UHGV virus genome: UHGV-0038300
Reading direction: 5' to 3' (one strand)
Origin: a virus
Length of the DNA stretch: 39,892 bases
Part shown: positions 109 through 39,833 of the stretch, in pieces
How the letters are laid out: every line of letters begins with the position of its first letter
Numbering within the stretch: position 1 is the first letter of the stretch
Notes under the pieces: model-generated
The model's database searches: none
What the model was told of the DNA's origin: nothing
What the model saw: only the letters and a program-made list of their open reading frames with translations
Program-made: the position numbers and the translations under genes

Positions 109-140
109 AAAAACCCTCTGTAGTAACAGAGGGTTTTGTT
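109..140. terminator. Rho-independent terminator hairpin (native terminator of the guaA region, usable on both strands)
   Basis: Stem ccctctgt (114-121) / acagaggg (126-133) with an A-run before and a T-run after. Confidence 0.6.
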
Positions 141-161
141 CATTCATAGTGCAGGGATCAA

Positions 162-178
162 AATCATTCCCACTCAAT
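162..178. repeat. attL core: 17-bp direct repeat aatcattcccactcaat, identical to 39817-39833
   Basis: Exact 17-bp identity with the sequence overlapping the guaA stop codon at the other end; integrase lies beside the other copy. Confidence 0.75.
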
Positions 179-288
179 TATTTACGGCAACCATAACCAA
201 TTGACTGATAACAACTTTCCACAACCTGGTTTTCACCGTACCGTTTTATATACCGTCACCGGAAATCAGTACCATGAAAAATGCCATG

Positions 289-771
289 CTATCTGGTCAA
301 CGTGTCGTACTGTTTTTCGCAGACTCTTCCGGCTGCGGCTGCCCGGTCAGCATACTCTGCCAGTTGTCTGTTTCTCTCGAGAGATTTGCTGAGCACGTCG
401 GCAAGCAAAACTCCGGTGTCTGCGGCTGACGTCCCAGCGCCGACAATGGCGTTATACTGCCTGAGCTGCTCACGGATGGCAAAGAGTTGTTGCTGCAACC
501 TGCCAGCGCGAGCGGCAGCATCAAGAGCATCATTGCGCGCCTGGTCGATCCTCTGCTGAGCTTCACGTTCATTGGCCACTTTCTCCTGTTCGTAGTACTG
601 ACGAACTTTGTCTTCTTCGGCTTTGCGGTCTTCTTCCGCCTGCGCATACCCGGCATCGTACTGGCGACTGCCGTGTATATTCCAGGCAACCACTCCGACG
701 ATGAACAGAGCAGCAAGCATCAACACAATAAGCATCTGTTTCCAATATGCTTTTACGAATGCCCAGATCAT
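289..771 (-). CDS. Rz-like i-spanin (inner-membrane spanin)
   Basis: N-terminal TM helix followed by a charged coiled-coil region resembling lambda Rz; immediately downstream of the endolysin. Confidence 0.7.
297..572 (-). CDS. Rz1-like o-spanin lipoprotein embedded in the +1 frame of Rz
   Basis: Embedded ORF contains the lipoprotein signal [26 protein letters not shown] (lipobox LAGC); start codon uncertain (572 or 533). Confidence 0.55.
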   Translation of the reverse strand: MNVKLSRGSTRRAMMLLMLPLALAGCSNNSLPSVSSSGSITPLSALGRQPQTPEFCLPTCSANLSRETDNWQSMLTGQPQPEESAKNSTTR

Positions 772-1397
772 ATAGCCAGCACCTTACTGGCAGTGACGTA
801 CCGCGCGCGCCGGTCGTCGATGCCGTTCCTGCCACCATTGATAATCAGAGTTACACGTGCAATATCACCGGTATACTTCATGCATCCTTTGCTGGCAAAG
901 AACCACGCCGCGCTACGAGCCGCGTATTCGTCCTGCGCCAGCAGTTCAGGATTCTCCAGCAAGTCCACTTTCAAGCCGTTTCCGCAGTCACGATAGTTAT
1001 TCAAACCGGTAATCTGGATAAGTCCGCGACCTCGGTAATTCCAGCCATCGCCGGGGGCATTGTTCCCCATGCGTTTGCTGTACACCAGATTGGCAATCGC
1101 TCTCTGGCGCTCAGGTGGCAATGGTGGTTCACCAGCACGGCGCCCCAATGCGTTGGCCTGTCCCTGAGTGAGACGACCAGCCCGAACGAAGTTAGCCAGT
1201 CCGCTGACGCTGTAGTTGAAATTTTCCTGCAACCGGGTGAAGCCTCCAGACTCATGCCCGACCTGAGCAATAAACATTGCCTGATCTTCTGGTTTGCTGA
1301 TATCAAACTCTTTCATCGCAGAAGTTATATGCGAGAACCAGCGTGCGGCCAGCGCCTCGCTAATACCAGCAGCTCGCTGGAATTGTTTAATCTCCAT
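768..1397 (-). CDS. Endolysin, glycoside hydrolase family 19 (chitinase-like lysozyme)
   Basis: GH19-type motif AQVGHESGG and overall phage GH19 endolysin-like sequence; sits in the lysis cassette. Confidence 0.8.
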
Positions 1398-1695
1398 GTT
1401 TAGACCTCGTTATTTTGAAAATCTGAACGACGTTACCGCGAGTTTTAAGAACCGCAGCAAGCATGACAGCGTTGATAATGACCTCAGATAAATCCACAGC
1501 CATTGGCGTGCGTAACCAGATTGCATAGACGACACGAACAGGAATACTGGCCGCAGCAACAATAAGGAAATAAGCAAGCCACCCTCCCCATCTTCGGTGT
1601 TGTGAACCGTTACGCCGGAATGTGACAACACGAATTGCTATGCCAGTACAAATAAGTGCATTGGTGATAAGCAAAACAAGCTCATTAGTTACCAT
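1387..1695 (-). CDS. Small membrane protein, holin or antiholin candidate
   Basis: About 102 aa with predicted TM helices, directly upstream of and overlapping the endolysin start. Confidence 0.5.
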
Positions 1696-2095
1696 CGCCT
1701 TTTCTCCCCGGAATTAACTCGCGTGGATTATCGGAACGGTGATAGAGCCAGATGCCAATTCGAACTGCGACGATTGCTGACACGAATGCACCAGCAGAGA
1801 AAACAATCCCTTTCTCAAACGAGTCCTGCGTAATGGTAGGGATCAGGCTGGCTATGCCGATAAGAATTGATGCTGCTGGTTTGTAAAAGAGAAGGCCGCA
1901 AAGAAAGCTAAGCATCGACAGGAGCACCCGTCGGCGAATCGGATATTCGACAGCAGAGGTAACAAAAATTACCGCACCAGACAAAGAACCCAAAGCAACC
2001 TCCGGAGGAACACCTGCTATCACCGCAGCAAGAGACCCCATACTAAGCCACTGATTTAATGTTTCACTGGTTAGTTGAGCAGACATGTTTTTCAC
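1685..2095 (-). CDS. Membrane protein, holin candidate
   Basis: 136 aa with 3-4 hydrophobic helices; first gene of the lysis cassette, preceded by an AT-rich promoter-like region (2096-2414). Confidence 0.5.
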   Translation of the reverse strand: MKNMSAQLTSETLNQWLSMGSLAAVIAGVPPEVALGSLSGAVIFVTSAVEYPIRRRVLLSMLSFLCGLLFYKPAASILIGIASLIPTITQDSFEKGIVFSAGAFVSAIVAVRIGIWLYHRSDNPRELIPGRKGDGN

Positions 2096-2414
2096 CGTTT
2101 ATGTACATTAAAACCATAAGAAAAGAGAACAACACATTAAACCATAAATGGTTTTTTGTTACCTTGCAACAATTTGTGAAATAAATGAAACACAAAACAA
2201 TAATAAATAAACAGCAGGAGATATTTAAAAGATGGAATTTAACATATATTAAATATAAGCATGTGATAAGCAGAACACCTATTTATTCGCATGACAATAC
2301 ATTATATTGACAGATATTTAAATTAGATATTTATTGGTAAATACAGAGCATGTATTTTAAGTAAACCTGCGCTATAACAGCGCAGGTCAACAATTATAAA
2401 AAAAGAAATTTAAT

Positions 2415-38181: not shown

Positions 38182-38372
38182 ACAGGGCATCACCAGCAGA
38201 TTTAAGAAAATGCCTTGAAACTGCAAACATGCTTGCACACAGCGGGATCAGGTTTGTTCCAATTCCCGCTGTCACTGATGCTGAATTTGCAACACTGTCA
38301 GCAATATTCGAAAACAAAATTGAATCACTGGCAGCAGAAGCAGAGATGGAAGAAAATCAGCAGAACTATTAA
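38178..38372 (+). CDS. Small hypothetical protein (64 aa) translationally coupled to the methyltransferase
   Basis: Its ATG overlaps the methyltransferase TGA (ATGA); acidic C-terminus; convergent with the integrase gene. Confidence 0.4.
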   Translation: MNRASPADLRKCLETANMLAHSGIRFVPIPAVTDAEFATLSAIFENKIESLAAEAEMEENQQNY

Positions 38373-38375
38373 ACG

Positions 38376-39626
38376 TTATTCCCCCGCCATCCACTTCTCA
38401 AACTTCGACGGGGAGAACGGAATCAGATCCGTATGCTCCCCGTTAATCCAGGAATCAATCATATCGGCCCACTGCTGCAACATGTAGGCGCGCTGTCTGG
38501 AGTATTCCGCTTTGTTATATACGGCGCGCACACCTTTCTGCTCATGTGCCAGAGCCTTTTCAATCCAGTCTGAAGGATAACCAGCCTCATGCAACAACGT
38601 ACTGGCTGTACGGCGCATATCGTGTACGGTGAAGCCCTGAATATGCTCACCATCTTCATTTATTATTTTCACCGTTCTGTCGATCAGAGAGTTCAGCGCG
38701 GCATTAGATAATGGCTTCCGGAAATTGTAACGACCAGGAACCAGATATTCACTTCCACCAGCGCACATCTGCAACCCAACCAATATATCCTGTGCCTGTT
38801 TAGGCAGGTAAATAACGTGCGCCCGGCTTCCCTTCATGCGGTCTGAAGGAATTGTCCATGTCCATTTTTTAAAATCTATTTCATCCCACGTTGCATTGGT
38901 GAATTCGCCTTTACGAACCATAGTGATAAGCACCAGCTTTAAAGCCATTTTCATAGTGCCCATAGCACCAATGGCATCCAGCGTGCGGAAGAACAGGCCA
39001 ATTTCTTCTGGTGTCAGTGTTCGCTCTCGTGGTTTAAATATGGCGATAGACGAAGGTTTAATGTCAGCCGCAGGATTAAACAAACCATGACCACGGTCAT
39101 TGGCGTGACGGTATACGCTGCTGATGATCTCCCTGGCCTGTACTGCTGTTGCCCGACCACCGCGTTCGACAATCCGGTCACACAAATCACGAACCATCGA
39201 TGTGGTAACTTCAGCCATCATTTTGTTGCCAAGAACCGGAAGTATGTCACGGTCGATCACCGCCTGCTTCATTGCGCGGGTACTGTCAGCCAAGATGACG
39301 TGTTTCATATAACTGTCGGTATGTACCGCAAACGTCTCGGCACCACGAATCTTTTTGATACCGTCACGTTTAGCCGCAGCCGGCGACTGTCCTGCTTTAA
39401 GCAGCTTCTTTGCAGCAATCAGTTCTTCTCGCGCTTCTGCCAGACTGATACCGTCACGCCCATACTGCCCGATTACCAGTGTTTCGCGGCGACCGTTGAT
39501 ACGGTAGTCATAGCGAAACGAGACCGTGCCTGACGTAAGCACAGCTACATACAGCCCGTCACGATCGGAGACCTTGTACAGTTTGTCCTGCGGCTTGAGG
39601 TTTTTTAATTTTGTATCGGTAAGCAC
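38376..39626 (-). CDS. int: Tyrosine-type site-specific integrase (P4-like)
   Basis: N-terminal MLTDTKLKNLKP... arm-binding-type region and a C-terminal catalytic region with R...HDMRRT...Y; adjacent to attR; GTG start. Confidence 0.9.
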   Translation of the reverse strand: MLTDTKLKNLKPQDKLYKVSDRDGLYVAVLTSGTVSFRYDYRINGRRETLVIGQYGRDGISLAEAREELIAAKKLLKAGQSPAAAKRDGIKKIRGAETFAVHTDSYMKHVILADSTRAMKQAVIDRDILPVLGNKMMAEVTTSMVRDLCDRIVERGGRATAVQAREIISSVYRHANDRGHGLFNPAADIKPSSIAIFKPRERTLTPEEIGLFFRTLDAIGAMGTMKMALKLVLITMVRKGEFTNATWDEIDFKKWTWTIPSDRMKGSRAHVIYLPKQAQDILVGLQMCAGGSEYLVPGRYNFRKPLSNAALNSLIDRTVKIINEDGEHIQGFTVHDMRRTASTLLHEAGYPSDWIEKALAHEQKGVRAVYNKAEYSRQRAYMLQQWADMIDSWINGEHTDLIPFSPSKFEKWMAGE

Positions 39627-39667
39627 AATTCACCCGTATAGAAACCATTTTCATGACGGTATGAGAG

Positions 39668-39684
39668 TATACCTTTAAGGTAAT
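39668..39684. promoter_or_regulatory. 17-bp operator-like site TATACC-TTTAA-GGTAAT in the integrase promoter region, nested in a larger inverted repeat (39655-39690)
   Basis: Same site family as the immunity operators; flanked by GACGGTAT ... ATACCGTC. Confidence 0.55.
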
Positions 39685-39740
39685 ACCGTCACCTGTACCG
39701 CCGAAAAATATGGTGTAGAGTGAATAGAAATGAATACATA

Positions 39741-39770
39741 AAAACAAAAACCCTCTGCAAAAACAGAGGG
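39741..39770 (-). terminator. Phage-borne rho-independent terminator that replaces the native guaA terminator after integration
   Basis: Stem ccctctg-caaaaa-cagaggg almost identical to the host terminator stem at 114-133; the T-run is on the minus strand. Confidence 0.55.
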
Positions 39771-39816
39771 TTGAGTTGGCATCTGAATAGGAATGATTTG
39801 CTATGAGTTAGCTGTT

Positions 39817-39833
39817 AATCATTCCCACTCAAT
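39817..39833. repeat. attR core: 17-bp direct repeat aatcattcccactcaat overlapping the guaA stop codon
   Basis: Identical to 162-178. Confidence 0.75.

What the first reader, a model, noticed from the sequence alone, without database searches (positions are those of the whole stretch)
109..39833. Integration into the guaA 3' end, with the phage carrying the last guaA codons and a mimic of the guaA terminator
The 17-bp direct repeat includes the last four guaA codons and the stop. Just inside attR the phage carries a hairpin (39751-39770, ccctctg-caaaaa-cagaggg) nearly identical in stem sequence to the displaced host terminator now found beyond attL (114-133, ccctctgt-agta-acagaggg). The phage therefore restores both the coding end and the transcription terminator of the essential guaA gene.
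Basis: partly seen in the sequence, partly recalled or inferred. Interest (0 to 1): 0.5.

Follow-up and report, generated by a model that had tools for sequence, protein, structure and literature searches.

The report
Prophage at guaA swaps matching terminators
A phiV10/epsilon15-type prophage sits in the last codons of the E. coli guaA gene, a published integration site, and brings its own copy of guaA's stop codon and transcription terminator, so the gene should stay intact.

Summary
A 17-bp direct repeat (162-178 and 39817-39833) bounds a 39,655-bp Uetakevirus prophage of the phiV10/epsilon15 type. Joining the two flanks gives an uninterrupted yfgI-guaA locus found in 4463 of 5426 complete E. 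coli genomes.

The repeat holds the guaA codons I-E-W-E plus the stop. Klebsiella lysogens show that the phage really supplies the last codon and the stop.

The two hairpins are related, not just alike:
- The CCCTCTG...CAGAGGG hairpin is the guaA terminator in E. coli, Klebsiella and the hosts of epsilon15 prophages (inferred Salmonella).
- In those Salmonella-type hosts it is identical to the phage copy over 27-32 nt and starts 46 nt after the stop, as in every phage examined.
- A BLAST of that host region against 2.3 Gb of phage DNA hits only this phage group, at its annotated terminator (E=4e-8).

In the free phage the hairpin lies after the lysis genes and before int. Integration therefore swaps two near-identical terminators.

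The guaA integration site and the 17-mer are published, and the hairpin is already annotated as a terminator. Only its kinship with the host terminator seems unremarked. Terminator function is untested. This is a tidy but ordinary case.

The parts
1..69 (+). 3' end of the host gene yfgI (DUF5384 family), convergent with guaA. The stop codon is at 67-69.
   Evidence: Translation gives ...SDSWFN*. RefSeq annotates yfgI/DUF5384 under the empty-site match.
110..137 (-). Host guaA terminator hairpin, displaced by the integration. Core stem CCCTCTGT/ACAGAGGG at 114-121 and 126-133, with U-tracts on both strands, so it probably also ends yfgI. In the lysogen it lies downstream of the phage Rz gene.
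   Evidence: Terminator scan. Fold of -19.4 kcal/mol, z -5.6. The same sequence lies beside guaA in empty-site genomes and beyond the phage junction in more than 85 E. coli lysogen junctions.
162..178 (.). att core copy at the lysis-gene end of the prophage (phage P arm joined to the host B' side).
   Evidence: Exact 17-bp repeat (D10). It equals the published attP/attB core attgagtgggaatgatt (PMC9782041).
179..39816 (.). Prophage body, a Uetakevirus of the phiV10/epsilon15 type. With one repeat copy the phage genome is 39,655 bp.
   Evidence: Repeat spacing is 39,655. There is 90-94% nucleotide identity to EC.W1-9, TL-2011b, ZX5 and phiV10 over parts of 180-8000. The int region is 98-99% identical to the same phages.
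250..259 (-). GTGACGGTAT, a presumed arm-type integrase binding site in the P arm (inferred).
   Evidence: Eleven copies in the window against 1.65 expected, the exact ones clustered around the att sites and the 5' part of int. The epsilon15 record annotates 10-nt 'integrase' binding sites in the equivalent region.
289..771 (-). Rz-like spanin (DUF2514). It is the last gene of the lysis cassette and reads toward the att core.
   Evidence: Pfam DUF2514, E=1.8e-44. phiV10 and epsilon15 annotate Rz/Rz1 at this position.
768..2095 (-). The rest of the lysis cassette: a GH19 endolysin (768-1397) and two holin-family genes (1387-1695 and 1685-2095).
   Evidence: Pfam Glyco_hydro_19, Phage_holin_3_7 and Phage_holin_8.
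38376..39626 (-). P4-type tyrosine integrase. It is co-directional with guaA and starts about 125 nt downstream of the phage hairpin.
   Evidence: Pfam Arm-DNA-bind_3, Phage_int_M and Phage_integrase. It is 98-99% identical to the phiV10-group integrases.
39653..39692 (.). P' arm: an inverted pair of (G/A)TGACGGTAT sites flanking a TTACC-N5-GGTAA-type palindrome (39669-39683), between the hairpin and int. Role inferred.
   Evidence: Sequence read.
39738..39772 (-). Phage-borne rho-independent terminator. The stem-loop AACCCTCTGTTTTTGCAGAGGGTT is at 39772-39749 and the U-tract TTTGTTTTTAT at 39748-39738. It starts 46 nt after the guaA stop codon.
   Evidence: Terminator scan. Fold of -16.5 kcal/mol, z -4.4, with a U-tract only in the guaA sense. 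The homologous site is annotated as a terminator in phiV10 and epsilon15. It is identical over 27 nt to the host flank in L288.
39817..39833 (-). att core copy that forms the end of guaA in the lysogen: codons ATT GAG TGG GAA, stop TGA (39821-39819), then TT.
39819..39892 (-). 3' end of guaA (GMP synthase). The gene runs off the right end of the window.
   Evidence: Translation gives ...[23 protein letters not shown]. RefSeq annotates guaA here.

Best explanation
This is a phiV10/epsilon15-type (Uetakevirus) prophage, inserted by its P4-type tyrosine integrase into the last codons of guaA.

The phage attP holds two short blocks homologous to the guaA 3' region of enterobacteria. One is the core, ATTGAGTGGGAATGATT, which covers the last four codons and the stop. 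The other lies 46 nt further on and is a copy of the guaA rho-independent terminator, CCCTCTG-loop-CAGAGGG followed by a U-tract.

In the free phage the order on one strand is holin, endolysin, Rz/Rz1, core, terminator, int. There the hairpin ends the lysis operon and keeps read-through out of int.

Strand exchange inside ATTGAGTGGGA splits this arrangement. guaA acquires the phage's last codon, stop and terminator. That should preserve the GuaA protein and the 3' end of the guaBA transcript, and block read-through from a housekeeping operon into int. The original host terminator stays with the convergent gene yfgI and now lies behind Rz.

Shown here: the junctions, the gene order and the homology. 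Inferred: that both hairpins terminate in vivo, and that the phage copy was captured from a Salmonella-like host.
For: Junctions and identity:
- The empty site matches at 100% over 237 nt and is present in 4463 of 5426 E. coli genomes.
- The junction next to int is present in 568 of 5426 genomes.
- The integrase and att region are 98-99% identical to phiV10, ZX5 and TL-2011b.
- The same 17-mer was verified as attP/attB by PCR and Sanger sequencing, and lysogeny had no growth effect (PMC9782041).
- The epsilon15 cluster of integrases is known to target the guaA 3' flank (PMC8138268).

The phage supplies the coding end:
- In K. pneumoniae lysogens one junction reads GAATGA (phage) and the other GAGTAA (host).

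Gene order in the free phage:
- The phiV10 and epsilon15 records show endolysin, Rz/Rz1, core, annotated terminator, int, all on one strand.
- The Pfam results for this window agree.

Hairpin homology:
- The host guaA terminators of E. coli, K. pneumoniae, two further host types and the hosts of epsilon15-type prophages all carry CCCTCTG...CAGAGGG. Those epsilon15-type prophages are 97-99.9% identical to epsilon15 in the lysis region.
- phiV10 is identical to host flank L269 over 32 nt. This window's phage copy is identical to host flank L288 over 27 nt. In both cases the hairpin starts 46 nt after the stop.
- BLAST of that host flank against 50,697 phage records hits only the 36 phages of this group, at the hairpin (E=4e-8).
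- The motif is absent from 851 kb of control loci.

Terminator character:
-.
- Stem variants keep pairing through G.U only in the guaA sense.

General layout:
- GIsul2-like guaA islands have the same order: guaA stop, hairpin with T-run, then a co-directional int.
Against: - No transcript data exist for this locus. Termination at either hairpin is only predicted.
- The phage hairpin does not follow the host's loop variants. E. coli has TTACTA and Klebsiella has TGTTTA, while the phages have TTTTTA or TTTTTG. Matching the current host is therefore not being selected.
- Prophages with lysis regions about 82-97% identical to the Klebsiella phage sit in hosts whose guaA terminators are unrelated (L254, L260 and L290). 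Sequence identity with the host terminator is therefore not needed for lysogeny.
- The 41-nt spacer between the core and the hairpin block shows no clear homology to any host spacer (about 33% identity, my own count from the sequences). The capture scenario and its direction therefore remain inferences.
- The G.U argument rests on only three variant types, which has about a 1 in 8 chance of arising at random.
Confidence: 0.8

Rival explanations
1. Chance resemblance. The two are unrelated, ordinary GC-rich terminators that happen to share a 7-8 bp stem.
For: Terminator hairpins are short and biased in composition. Because the stem is palindromic, its two arms are not independent, so the 84% identity over 32 nt overstates the information content.
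Against: The motif occurs only at these two sites in the window and never in 851 kb of control loci. The other phage terminators use different stems. Identity with the Salmonella-type host flank reaches 27-32 nt, including the loop and both flanks, at the same 46-nt distance from the stop. BLAST gives E=4e-8 in 2.3 Gb and hits this phage group only.
Confidence: 0.02
2. Ongoing homogenisation. The two hairpins flank the prophage as direct repeats and are kept alike by recombination or gene conversion within lysogens, not by shared ancestry plus selection for terminator function.
For: In the lysogen the two hairpins form 27-32-nt near-identical direct repeats 39.6 kb apart. A loop-flipped phage variant, CCCTCTGTAAAAACAGAGGG, exists (L214 and L239), so the palindrome does rearrange.
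Against: E. coli phages keep the TTTTTA or TTTTTG loop while their hosts have TTACTA. Klebsiella phages keep TTTTTA while their hosts have TGTTTA. The predicted recombination product (guaA, core, phage spacer, hairpin, yfgI) has no full-identity hit in 5426 E. coli genomes. The reciprocal product, a phage carrying the host spacer, was absent from the junctions and attP sequences examined, about 175 pattern matches in all.
Confidence: 0.05
3. A DNA-level recombination element. The hairpin sequence is conserved in attP and attB because Int, IHF or Xis bind it, or because it forms a cruciform needed for site-specific recombination. Its terminator function would then be incidental.
For: The hairpin lies inside attP, between the core and the P' arm sites. 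The epsilon15 record annotates an IHF site that overlaps the stem-loop.
Against: The distance from the core to the hairpin varies among hosts: about 21, 26, 28 and 46 nt. Several hosts used by this phage group lack the hairpin altogether. Related guaA integrases use an 8-19 bp attB (PMC9376610). The strong U-tract is present only in the guaA sense, and the stem variants are G.U-compatible only on that strand. Both points favour an RNA-level role.
Confidence: 0.1

Closest known systems
phiV10, epsilon15 and vB_EcoP_ZX5 (genus Uetakevirus) integrating at the guaA 3' end
   Same: The 17-bp core attgagtgggaatgatt is the same. The integrase and att region are 98-99% identical at the nucleotide level, with attP about 190 bp upstream of int. 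The gene order Rz, core, terminator, int is the same. The hairpin is annotated as a rho-independent terminator in both GenBank records (PMC9782041).
   Different: Only parts of the rest of this genome match known phages: 41-53% of the first 7.8 kb at 90-94% identity. The kinship between the hairpin and the host guaA terminator is not mentioned in any paper I could read. The epsilon15 and phiV10 genome papers were not available.
e14 and phage 21 in icd, and phages or islands in tRNA genes (P4, P22, HP1). These integrate into the 3' end of a gene and carry a replacement 3' end. (From background knowledge.)
   Same: The crossover lies inside the 3' end of a conserved gene, and the element supplies the displaced end, so the gene product is unchanged.
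   Different: The coding part replaced here is tiny, at most four codons plus the stop. The second homology block is the transcription terminator, separated from the core by a non-homologous spacer of the same length as in the Salmonella-type host.
GIsul2, CMGI-3 and related guaA-targeting genomic islands (the epsilon15 cluster of tyrosine recombinases)
   Same: They target the guaA 3' end (GAGTGGGA) and encode a homologous P4-type integrase. They share the order guaA stop, hairpin with T-run, co-directional int (PMC9376610; PMC8138268).
   Different: They are islands, not phages. Their hairpin is of the GCCCGC type, not the CCCTCTG type.
Lambda sib retroregulation. (From background knowledge.)
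   Same: Site-specific recombination moves an RNA 3'-end element from one transcription unit to another.
   Different: In lambda, sib lies downstream of int, across attP, and destabilises int mRNA. Here int lies downstream of the hairpin and reads away from attP, so the retroregulation geometry is not met.

Membership tests
Uetakevirus (phiV10/epsilon15-type) prophage at the guaA attB | A P4-type tyrosine integrase closely related to those of phiV10 and epsilon15 | tested here: met
   The 1.5-kb int region is 98-99% identical at the nucleotide level to the phiV10-group phages and 81.6% to epsilon15. At the protein level it is 98.6-99.3% identical to Escherichia prophage integrases and 87.9% to a Salmonella phage integrase.
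Uetakevirus (phiV10/epsilon15-type) prophage at the guaA attB | The attP core ATTGAGTGGGAATGATT about 190 bp upstream of int, duplicated at both prophage ends | tested here: met
   The sequence is identical to the published core (PMC9782041).
Uetakevirus (phiV10/epsilon15-type) prophage at the guaA attB | An uninterrupted attB exists in prophage-free genomes with exactly these junctions | tested here: met
   The composite of the two flanks matches at 100% over 237 nt and is present in 4463 of 5426 genomes.
Uetakevirus (phiV10/epsilon15-type) prophage at the guaA attB | Genome-wide synteny and similarity with the type phages | tested here: inconclusive
   Only 180-8000 and 38300-39816 were compared. 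Coverage of the first 7.8 kb was 41-53% at 90-94% identity. The size of 39,655 bp fits the genus.
Rho-independent (intrinsic) terminator | A GC-rich stem-loop followed directly by a U-tract on the transcribed strand | tested here: met
   Both hairpins meet this on the guaA-sense strand.
Rho-independent (intrinsic) terminator | Transcripts end at the U-tract in vivo or in vitro | not testable with these tools
   No transcript data were available. Term-seq or 3' RACE is needed.
Integration that restores the 3' end of the target gene (icd or tRNA type) | The crossover lies inside the gene, and element-borne sequence replaces the displaced end without changing the product | tested here: met
   Klebsiella junctions read GAATGA on the phage side and GAGTAA on the host side. 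In the lysogen GuaA still ends ...IEWE*.
Lambda-type sib retroregulation | The regulatory hairpin lies downstream of int, across attP, and is separated from int by integration | tested here: not met
   int lies downstream of the hairpin and reads away from the core, both in the free phage and in the prophage.

The most novel reading that the evidence does not exclude
Mobile elements that target guaA, both this phage group and the GIsul2-like islands, may systematically carry a captured copy of a host guaA terminator inside attP, at the native distance from the stop codon. It would act as a dual-purpose insulator that keeps the 3' end of the guaBA transcript unchanged and stops read-through from a strong housekeeping operon into int. 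If so, the terminator is a selected, functional part of the attachment region rather than an accident of ancestry. The phage copy would trace back to a Salmonella-like host.
Probability: 0.4. Interest if true: 0.4.

Novelty: already known. Interest (0 to 1): 0.27.

Why it matters
This case shows, down to single bases, how a temperate phage can occupy a conserved housekeeping gene at little apparent cost. The phage replaces the gene's stop codon and also its terminator, and the same hairpin protects the phage's own integrase gene from host read-through. That is useful for annotating prophage boundaries at guaA, which is occupied by this phage type in about 10% of complete E. coli genomes. It also helps when designing insulated integration vectors based on this integrase. 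It does not change how integration is understood.

Tried and rejected
1. I looked for the recombination product expected if the two hairpins recombine (guaA, core, phage spacer, hairpin, yfgI). No E. coli genome carries it at full identity.

2. The search for related loci with the integrase on IMG/VR returned only 98-99% relatives, and most of those contigs start exactly at the int start codon. It therefore added only a few more copies of the phiV10-type hairpin and none from divergent phages. As a result I could not test whether divergent phages, in hosts with unrelated guaA terminators, carry hairpins that match those hosts.

3. The genome-contig scan with the 17-mer returned mostly non-enteric bacteria, because the 17-mer is conserved at guaA ends across bacteria and archaea. 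No Salmonella or Klebsiella reference locus came back. Host flanks were taken instead from prophage junctions in IMG/VR and GenBank.

4. The epsilon15 and phiV10 genome papers are not held, so I cannot say whether they mention the terminator homology.

5. Rfam found no known RNA family at either hairpin.

6. The sib-type retroregulation reading was rejected on gene orientation.

7. No sigma-70-like promoter was found between the hairpin and int, so how int is expressed remains open.

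
Full report
**Observation**

AATCATTCCCACTCAAT occurs exactly at 162-178 and 39817-39833, with a start-to-start spacing of 39,655 bp (D10). On the minus strand the repeat reads ATT GAG TGG GAA TGA TT. The frame entering from the right end gives ...[23 protein letters not shown], the conserved C-terminus of GMP synthase.

The left flank holds the end of a convergent gene...SDSWFN*, which RefSeq calls yfgI/DUF5384.

Both hairpins are present and score as intrinsic-terminator-like on the minus strand, which is the guaA sense:
- AAAACCCTCTGTTACTACAGAGGGTTTT followed by TTATCTTC, at 137-110.
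- AACCCTCTGTTTTTGCAGAGGGTT followed by TTTGTTTTTA, at 39772-39749.

As RNA they fold at -19.4 and -16.5 kcal/mol, and no shuffle out of 200 folds as well. The host hairpin has U-tracts on both strands. The phage hairpin has one only in the guaA sense.

**Boundaries**

Joining window 1-178 to 39834-39892 gives a 237-nt sequence. It matches E. coli AR_0013 at 100% and covers at least 80% in 4463 of 5426 complete E. coli genomes, annotated there as guaA next to yfgI. The repeat is therefore the true junction.

The junction on the int side (39627-39892) is present in 568 of 5426 genomes and is 100% identical in strain E2865. About one complete E. coli genome in ten thus carries this kind of prophage at guaA.

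**What the element is**

The int region is 98-99% identical to phiV10, TL-2011b, ZX5 and phiv142-3, and 81.6% identical to epsilon15. The left 7.8 kb matches the same phages in part.

Pfam finds the following, all on the minus strand:
- an Rz-like DUF2514 protein (289-771);
- a GH19 endolysin (768-1397);
- two holin-family genes;
- a P4-type integrase (38376-39626).

This is a Uetakevirus prophage.

The literature already records integration of this group into the guaA 3' end:
- ZX5 was verified by PCR and Sanger sequencing of attB and both junctions, with the same 17-mer, which that paper also states for phiV10 and epsilon15. Lysogeny had no growth effect (PMC9782041).
- TL-2011b inserts in guaA (PMC3293862).
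- The epsilon15 cluster of integrases targets the guaA 3' flank (PMC8138268).
- GIsul2 uses GAGTGGGA at the same place (PMC9376610).

**Does the phage really supply the gene's end?**

In E. coli the phage and host versions of the end are identical, so the question cannot be settled there. In K. pneumoniae it can. The native end is GAG TAA. In lysogens the junction next to int reads ATTGAGTGGGAATGATTAACGG (phage), and the other junction reads ATTGAGTGGGAGTAATCCCC (host).

Strand exchange therefore occurs within ATTGAGTGGGA, and the last codon and stop of guaA in a lysogen come from the phage.

**The hairpin in the free phage**

In the phiV10 and epsilon15 records the order on one strand is endolysin, Rz/Rz1, core, an annotated rho-independent terminator, then int.

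The hairpin is thus the phage's own terminator after the lysis cassette. It sits about 125 nt upstream of int, which reads in the same direction. Integration cuts between Rz and the hairpin. guaA receives the phage hairpin, and Rz receives the host hairpin.

The host hairpin stays with yfgI, whose transcript it probably also ends. That is why guaA would be left without a terminator if the phage did not bring one.

**Chance or homology?**

CCCTCTG-N3-8-CAGAGGG occurs only at the two sites in the window and not once in 851 kb of control genome loci. The other terminator-like hairpins of the prophage have different stems.

Host flanks beyond the phage junction, taken from IMG/VR prophages and GenBank prophage records, show the same stem in the guaA terminator of several hosts:

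| Host | Hairpin |
|---|---|
| E. coli | CCCTCTG TTACTA CAGAGGG |
| K. pneumoniae | CCCTCTG TGTTTA CAGAGGG |
| Two further host types | TTTA or TTTTTA loops |
| Hosts of epsilon15-type prophages | CCCTCTG TTTTTA or TTTTTG CAGAGGG |

The last group of prophages is 97-99.9% identical to epsilon15 in the lysis region, so their host is almost certainly Salmonella. This is an inference.

Against that last host type:
- phiV10 is identical over 32 nt (AATTTAACCCTCTGTTTTTACAGAGGGTTTTT).
- This window's phage copy is identical over 27 nt.
- The hairpin starts 46 nt after the stop codon both in the host and in every phage examined.

A BLAST of that host flank against 50,697 phage records (2.3 Gb) hits only the 36 phages of this group, at the hairpin, with 44 nt at 90.9% identity and E=4e-8. 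The hit falls under the feature 'terminator' in phiV10.

The two hairpins are therefore homologous. The 41-nt spacer between the core and the homology block is not recognisably homologous (about 33% identity by my count), but it has the same length.

**What the match is not**

The phage hairpin does not follow the loop variants of its current host.

Prophages with lysis regions about 82-97% identical to the Klebsiella phage sit in hosts whose guaA terminators are unrelated: L254, L260 and L290.

No E. coli genome carries the product expected from recombination between the two hairpins.

The likeness therefore reflects old shared ancestry plus conservation of a working terminator. It is not mimicry tuned to each host and not ongoing homogenisation.

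The three stem variants seen (CAGGGGG, CGGAGGG and TAGAGGG) all keep pairing as G.U in the guaA sense and would be C.A mismatches on the other strand. This weakly supports selection at the RNA level.

**Wider pattern**

The 17-mer lies at guaA ends in very diverse bacteria and archaea. Many of those loci are followed by island ends that have a hairpin with a T-run and then a co-directional, homologous integrase. An identical 100-nt island end occurs in Halopseudomonas, Candidimonas and Massilia, and its first 47 nt, up to a contig end, in a Methylophaga MAG.

A terminator between guaA and int is thus a shared design feature of guaA-targeting elements. This fits an insulator role.

**Verdict**

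Four things temper it:
- The integration site and the core sequence are published.
- The hairpin is already annotated as a terminator.
- guaA is only conditionally essential (background knowledge).
- Termination has not been measured.

The one element I could not find stated anywhere is that the phage terminator is a homologue of the enterobacterial guaA terminator, placed at the Salmonella-type distance from the stop, so that integration swaps two near-identical terminators. That is a neat detail of a known system, not a new kind of system.

Noticed in passing
window 6324-6506 (+): Rfam finds an isrK Hfq-binding RNA (6324-6400, 74.7 bits) directly followed by a C4 antisense RNA (6419-6506, 78.6 bits). 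They lie just upstream of an ORF at 6510-7247 (+), in the region where relatives annotate an anti-repressor. This looks like a P1/P7-type antisense immunity module.
   Followed up: no
window 25282-25358 (+): The prophage carries a tRNA-Arg gene with anticodon TCT.
   Followed up: no
window, 15 sites including 5060, 6180, 6273, 7313, 24945, 30383, 30445, 32776, 33488, 33550 and 39669: The palindrome TTACC-N5-GGTAA occurs 15 times against 0.75 expected by chance (no shuffle reached 15). One copy (39669-39683) lies between the phage terminator and the int start. It is probably the operator of a phage regulator, which would mean int is under that regulator's control (D1).
   Followed up: partly
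window 31691-31839: An iteron-like array of six 18-24-bp repeats (TCCCGTTTTTGGGATCATT) lies inside or next to the ORF at 31279-32094 (-). It is likely a replication origin (D2 and D7).
   Followed up: no
window 250-259, 39105-39114, 39358-39367, 39448-39457, 39653-39662 and 39683-39692: Copies of GTGACGGTAT (11 against 1.65 expected) cluster on both sides of the att core and in the 5' part of int. This matches the 'integrase' binding sites annotated in epsilon15, and they are presumably arm-type sites.
   Followed up: partly
L003-L122 (genome-contig hits to the 17-mer): ATTGAGTGGGAATGATT is the literal end of guaA in very diverse bacteria and some archaea. An identical 100-nt sequence follows the stop in Halopseudomonas (L019), Candidimonas (L056) and Massilia (L071), and its first 47 nt, up to a contig end, in a Methylophaga MAG (L026). 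In L019, L056 and L071 a co-directional P4-type integrase follows, so this is a promiscuous guaA island, probably GIsul2-like. GCCCGC-N3-8-GCGGGC hairpins occur 23 times within 200 nt of the core and only twice elsewhere in 851 kb.
   Followed up: partly
L214 and L239 (IMG/VR attP sequences): A phage hairpin variant has the loop inverted: CCCTCTGTAAAAACAGAGGG instead of CCCTCTGTTTTTACAGAGGG. The palindrome has flipped as a unit.
   Followed up: no
L124, L128, L144, L163, L210, L226, L229 and L237 (IMG/VR junctions): In these lysogens the phage junction is followed not by the host terminator but by the end of another guaA-targeting island (..GTCTGGCAACAGCCTG..AAGCCCGCGTAACTGCGGGCTTTTTT). Two elements therefore occupy the guaA site in tandem.
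   Followed up: no
L247/L269, L274 and L288 (host flanks of epsilon15-type prophages): Downstream of the shared terminator the flanks stay alike for roughly 30-60 nt and then diverge completely: an IS3-type transposase fragment, a 264-aa ORF followed by a yfgI homologue, or a LysE-family gene. The guaA 3' flank appears to be a hotspot of variation in that host.
   Followed up: no
L030 (record titled Gordonia sp. IEGM753): Its guaA end and downstream sequence are nearly identical to those of several Pseudomonas loci (L027, L028, L040, L051 and L057). This is unexpected for an actinobacterium and suggests contamination or a mislabelled contig.
   Followed up: no
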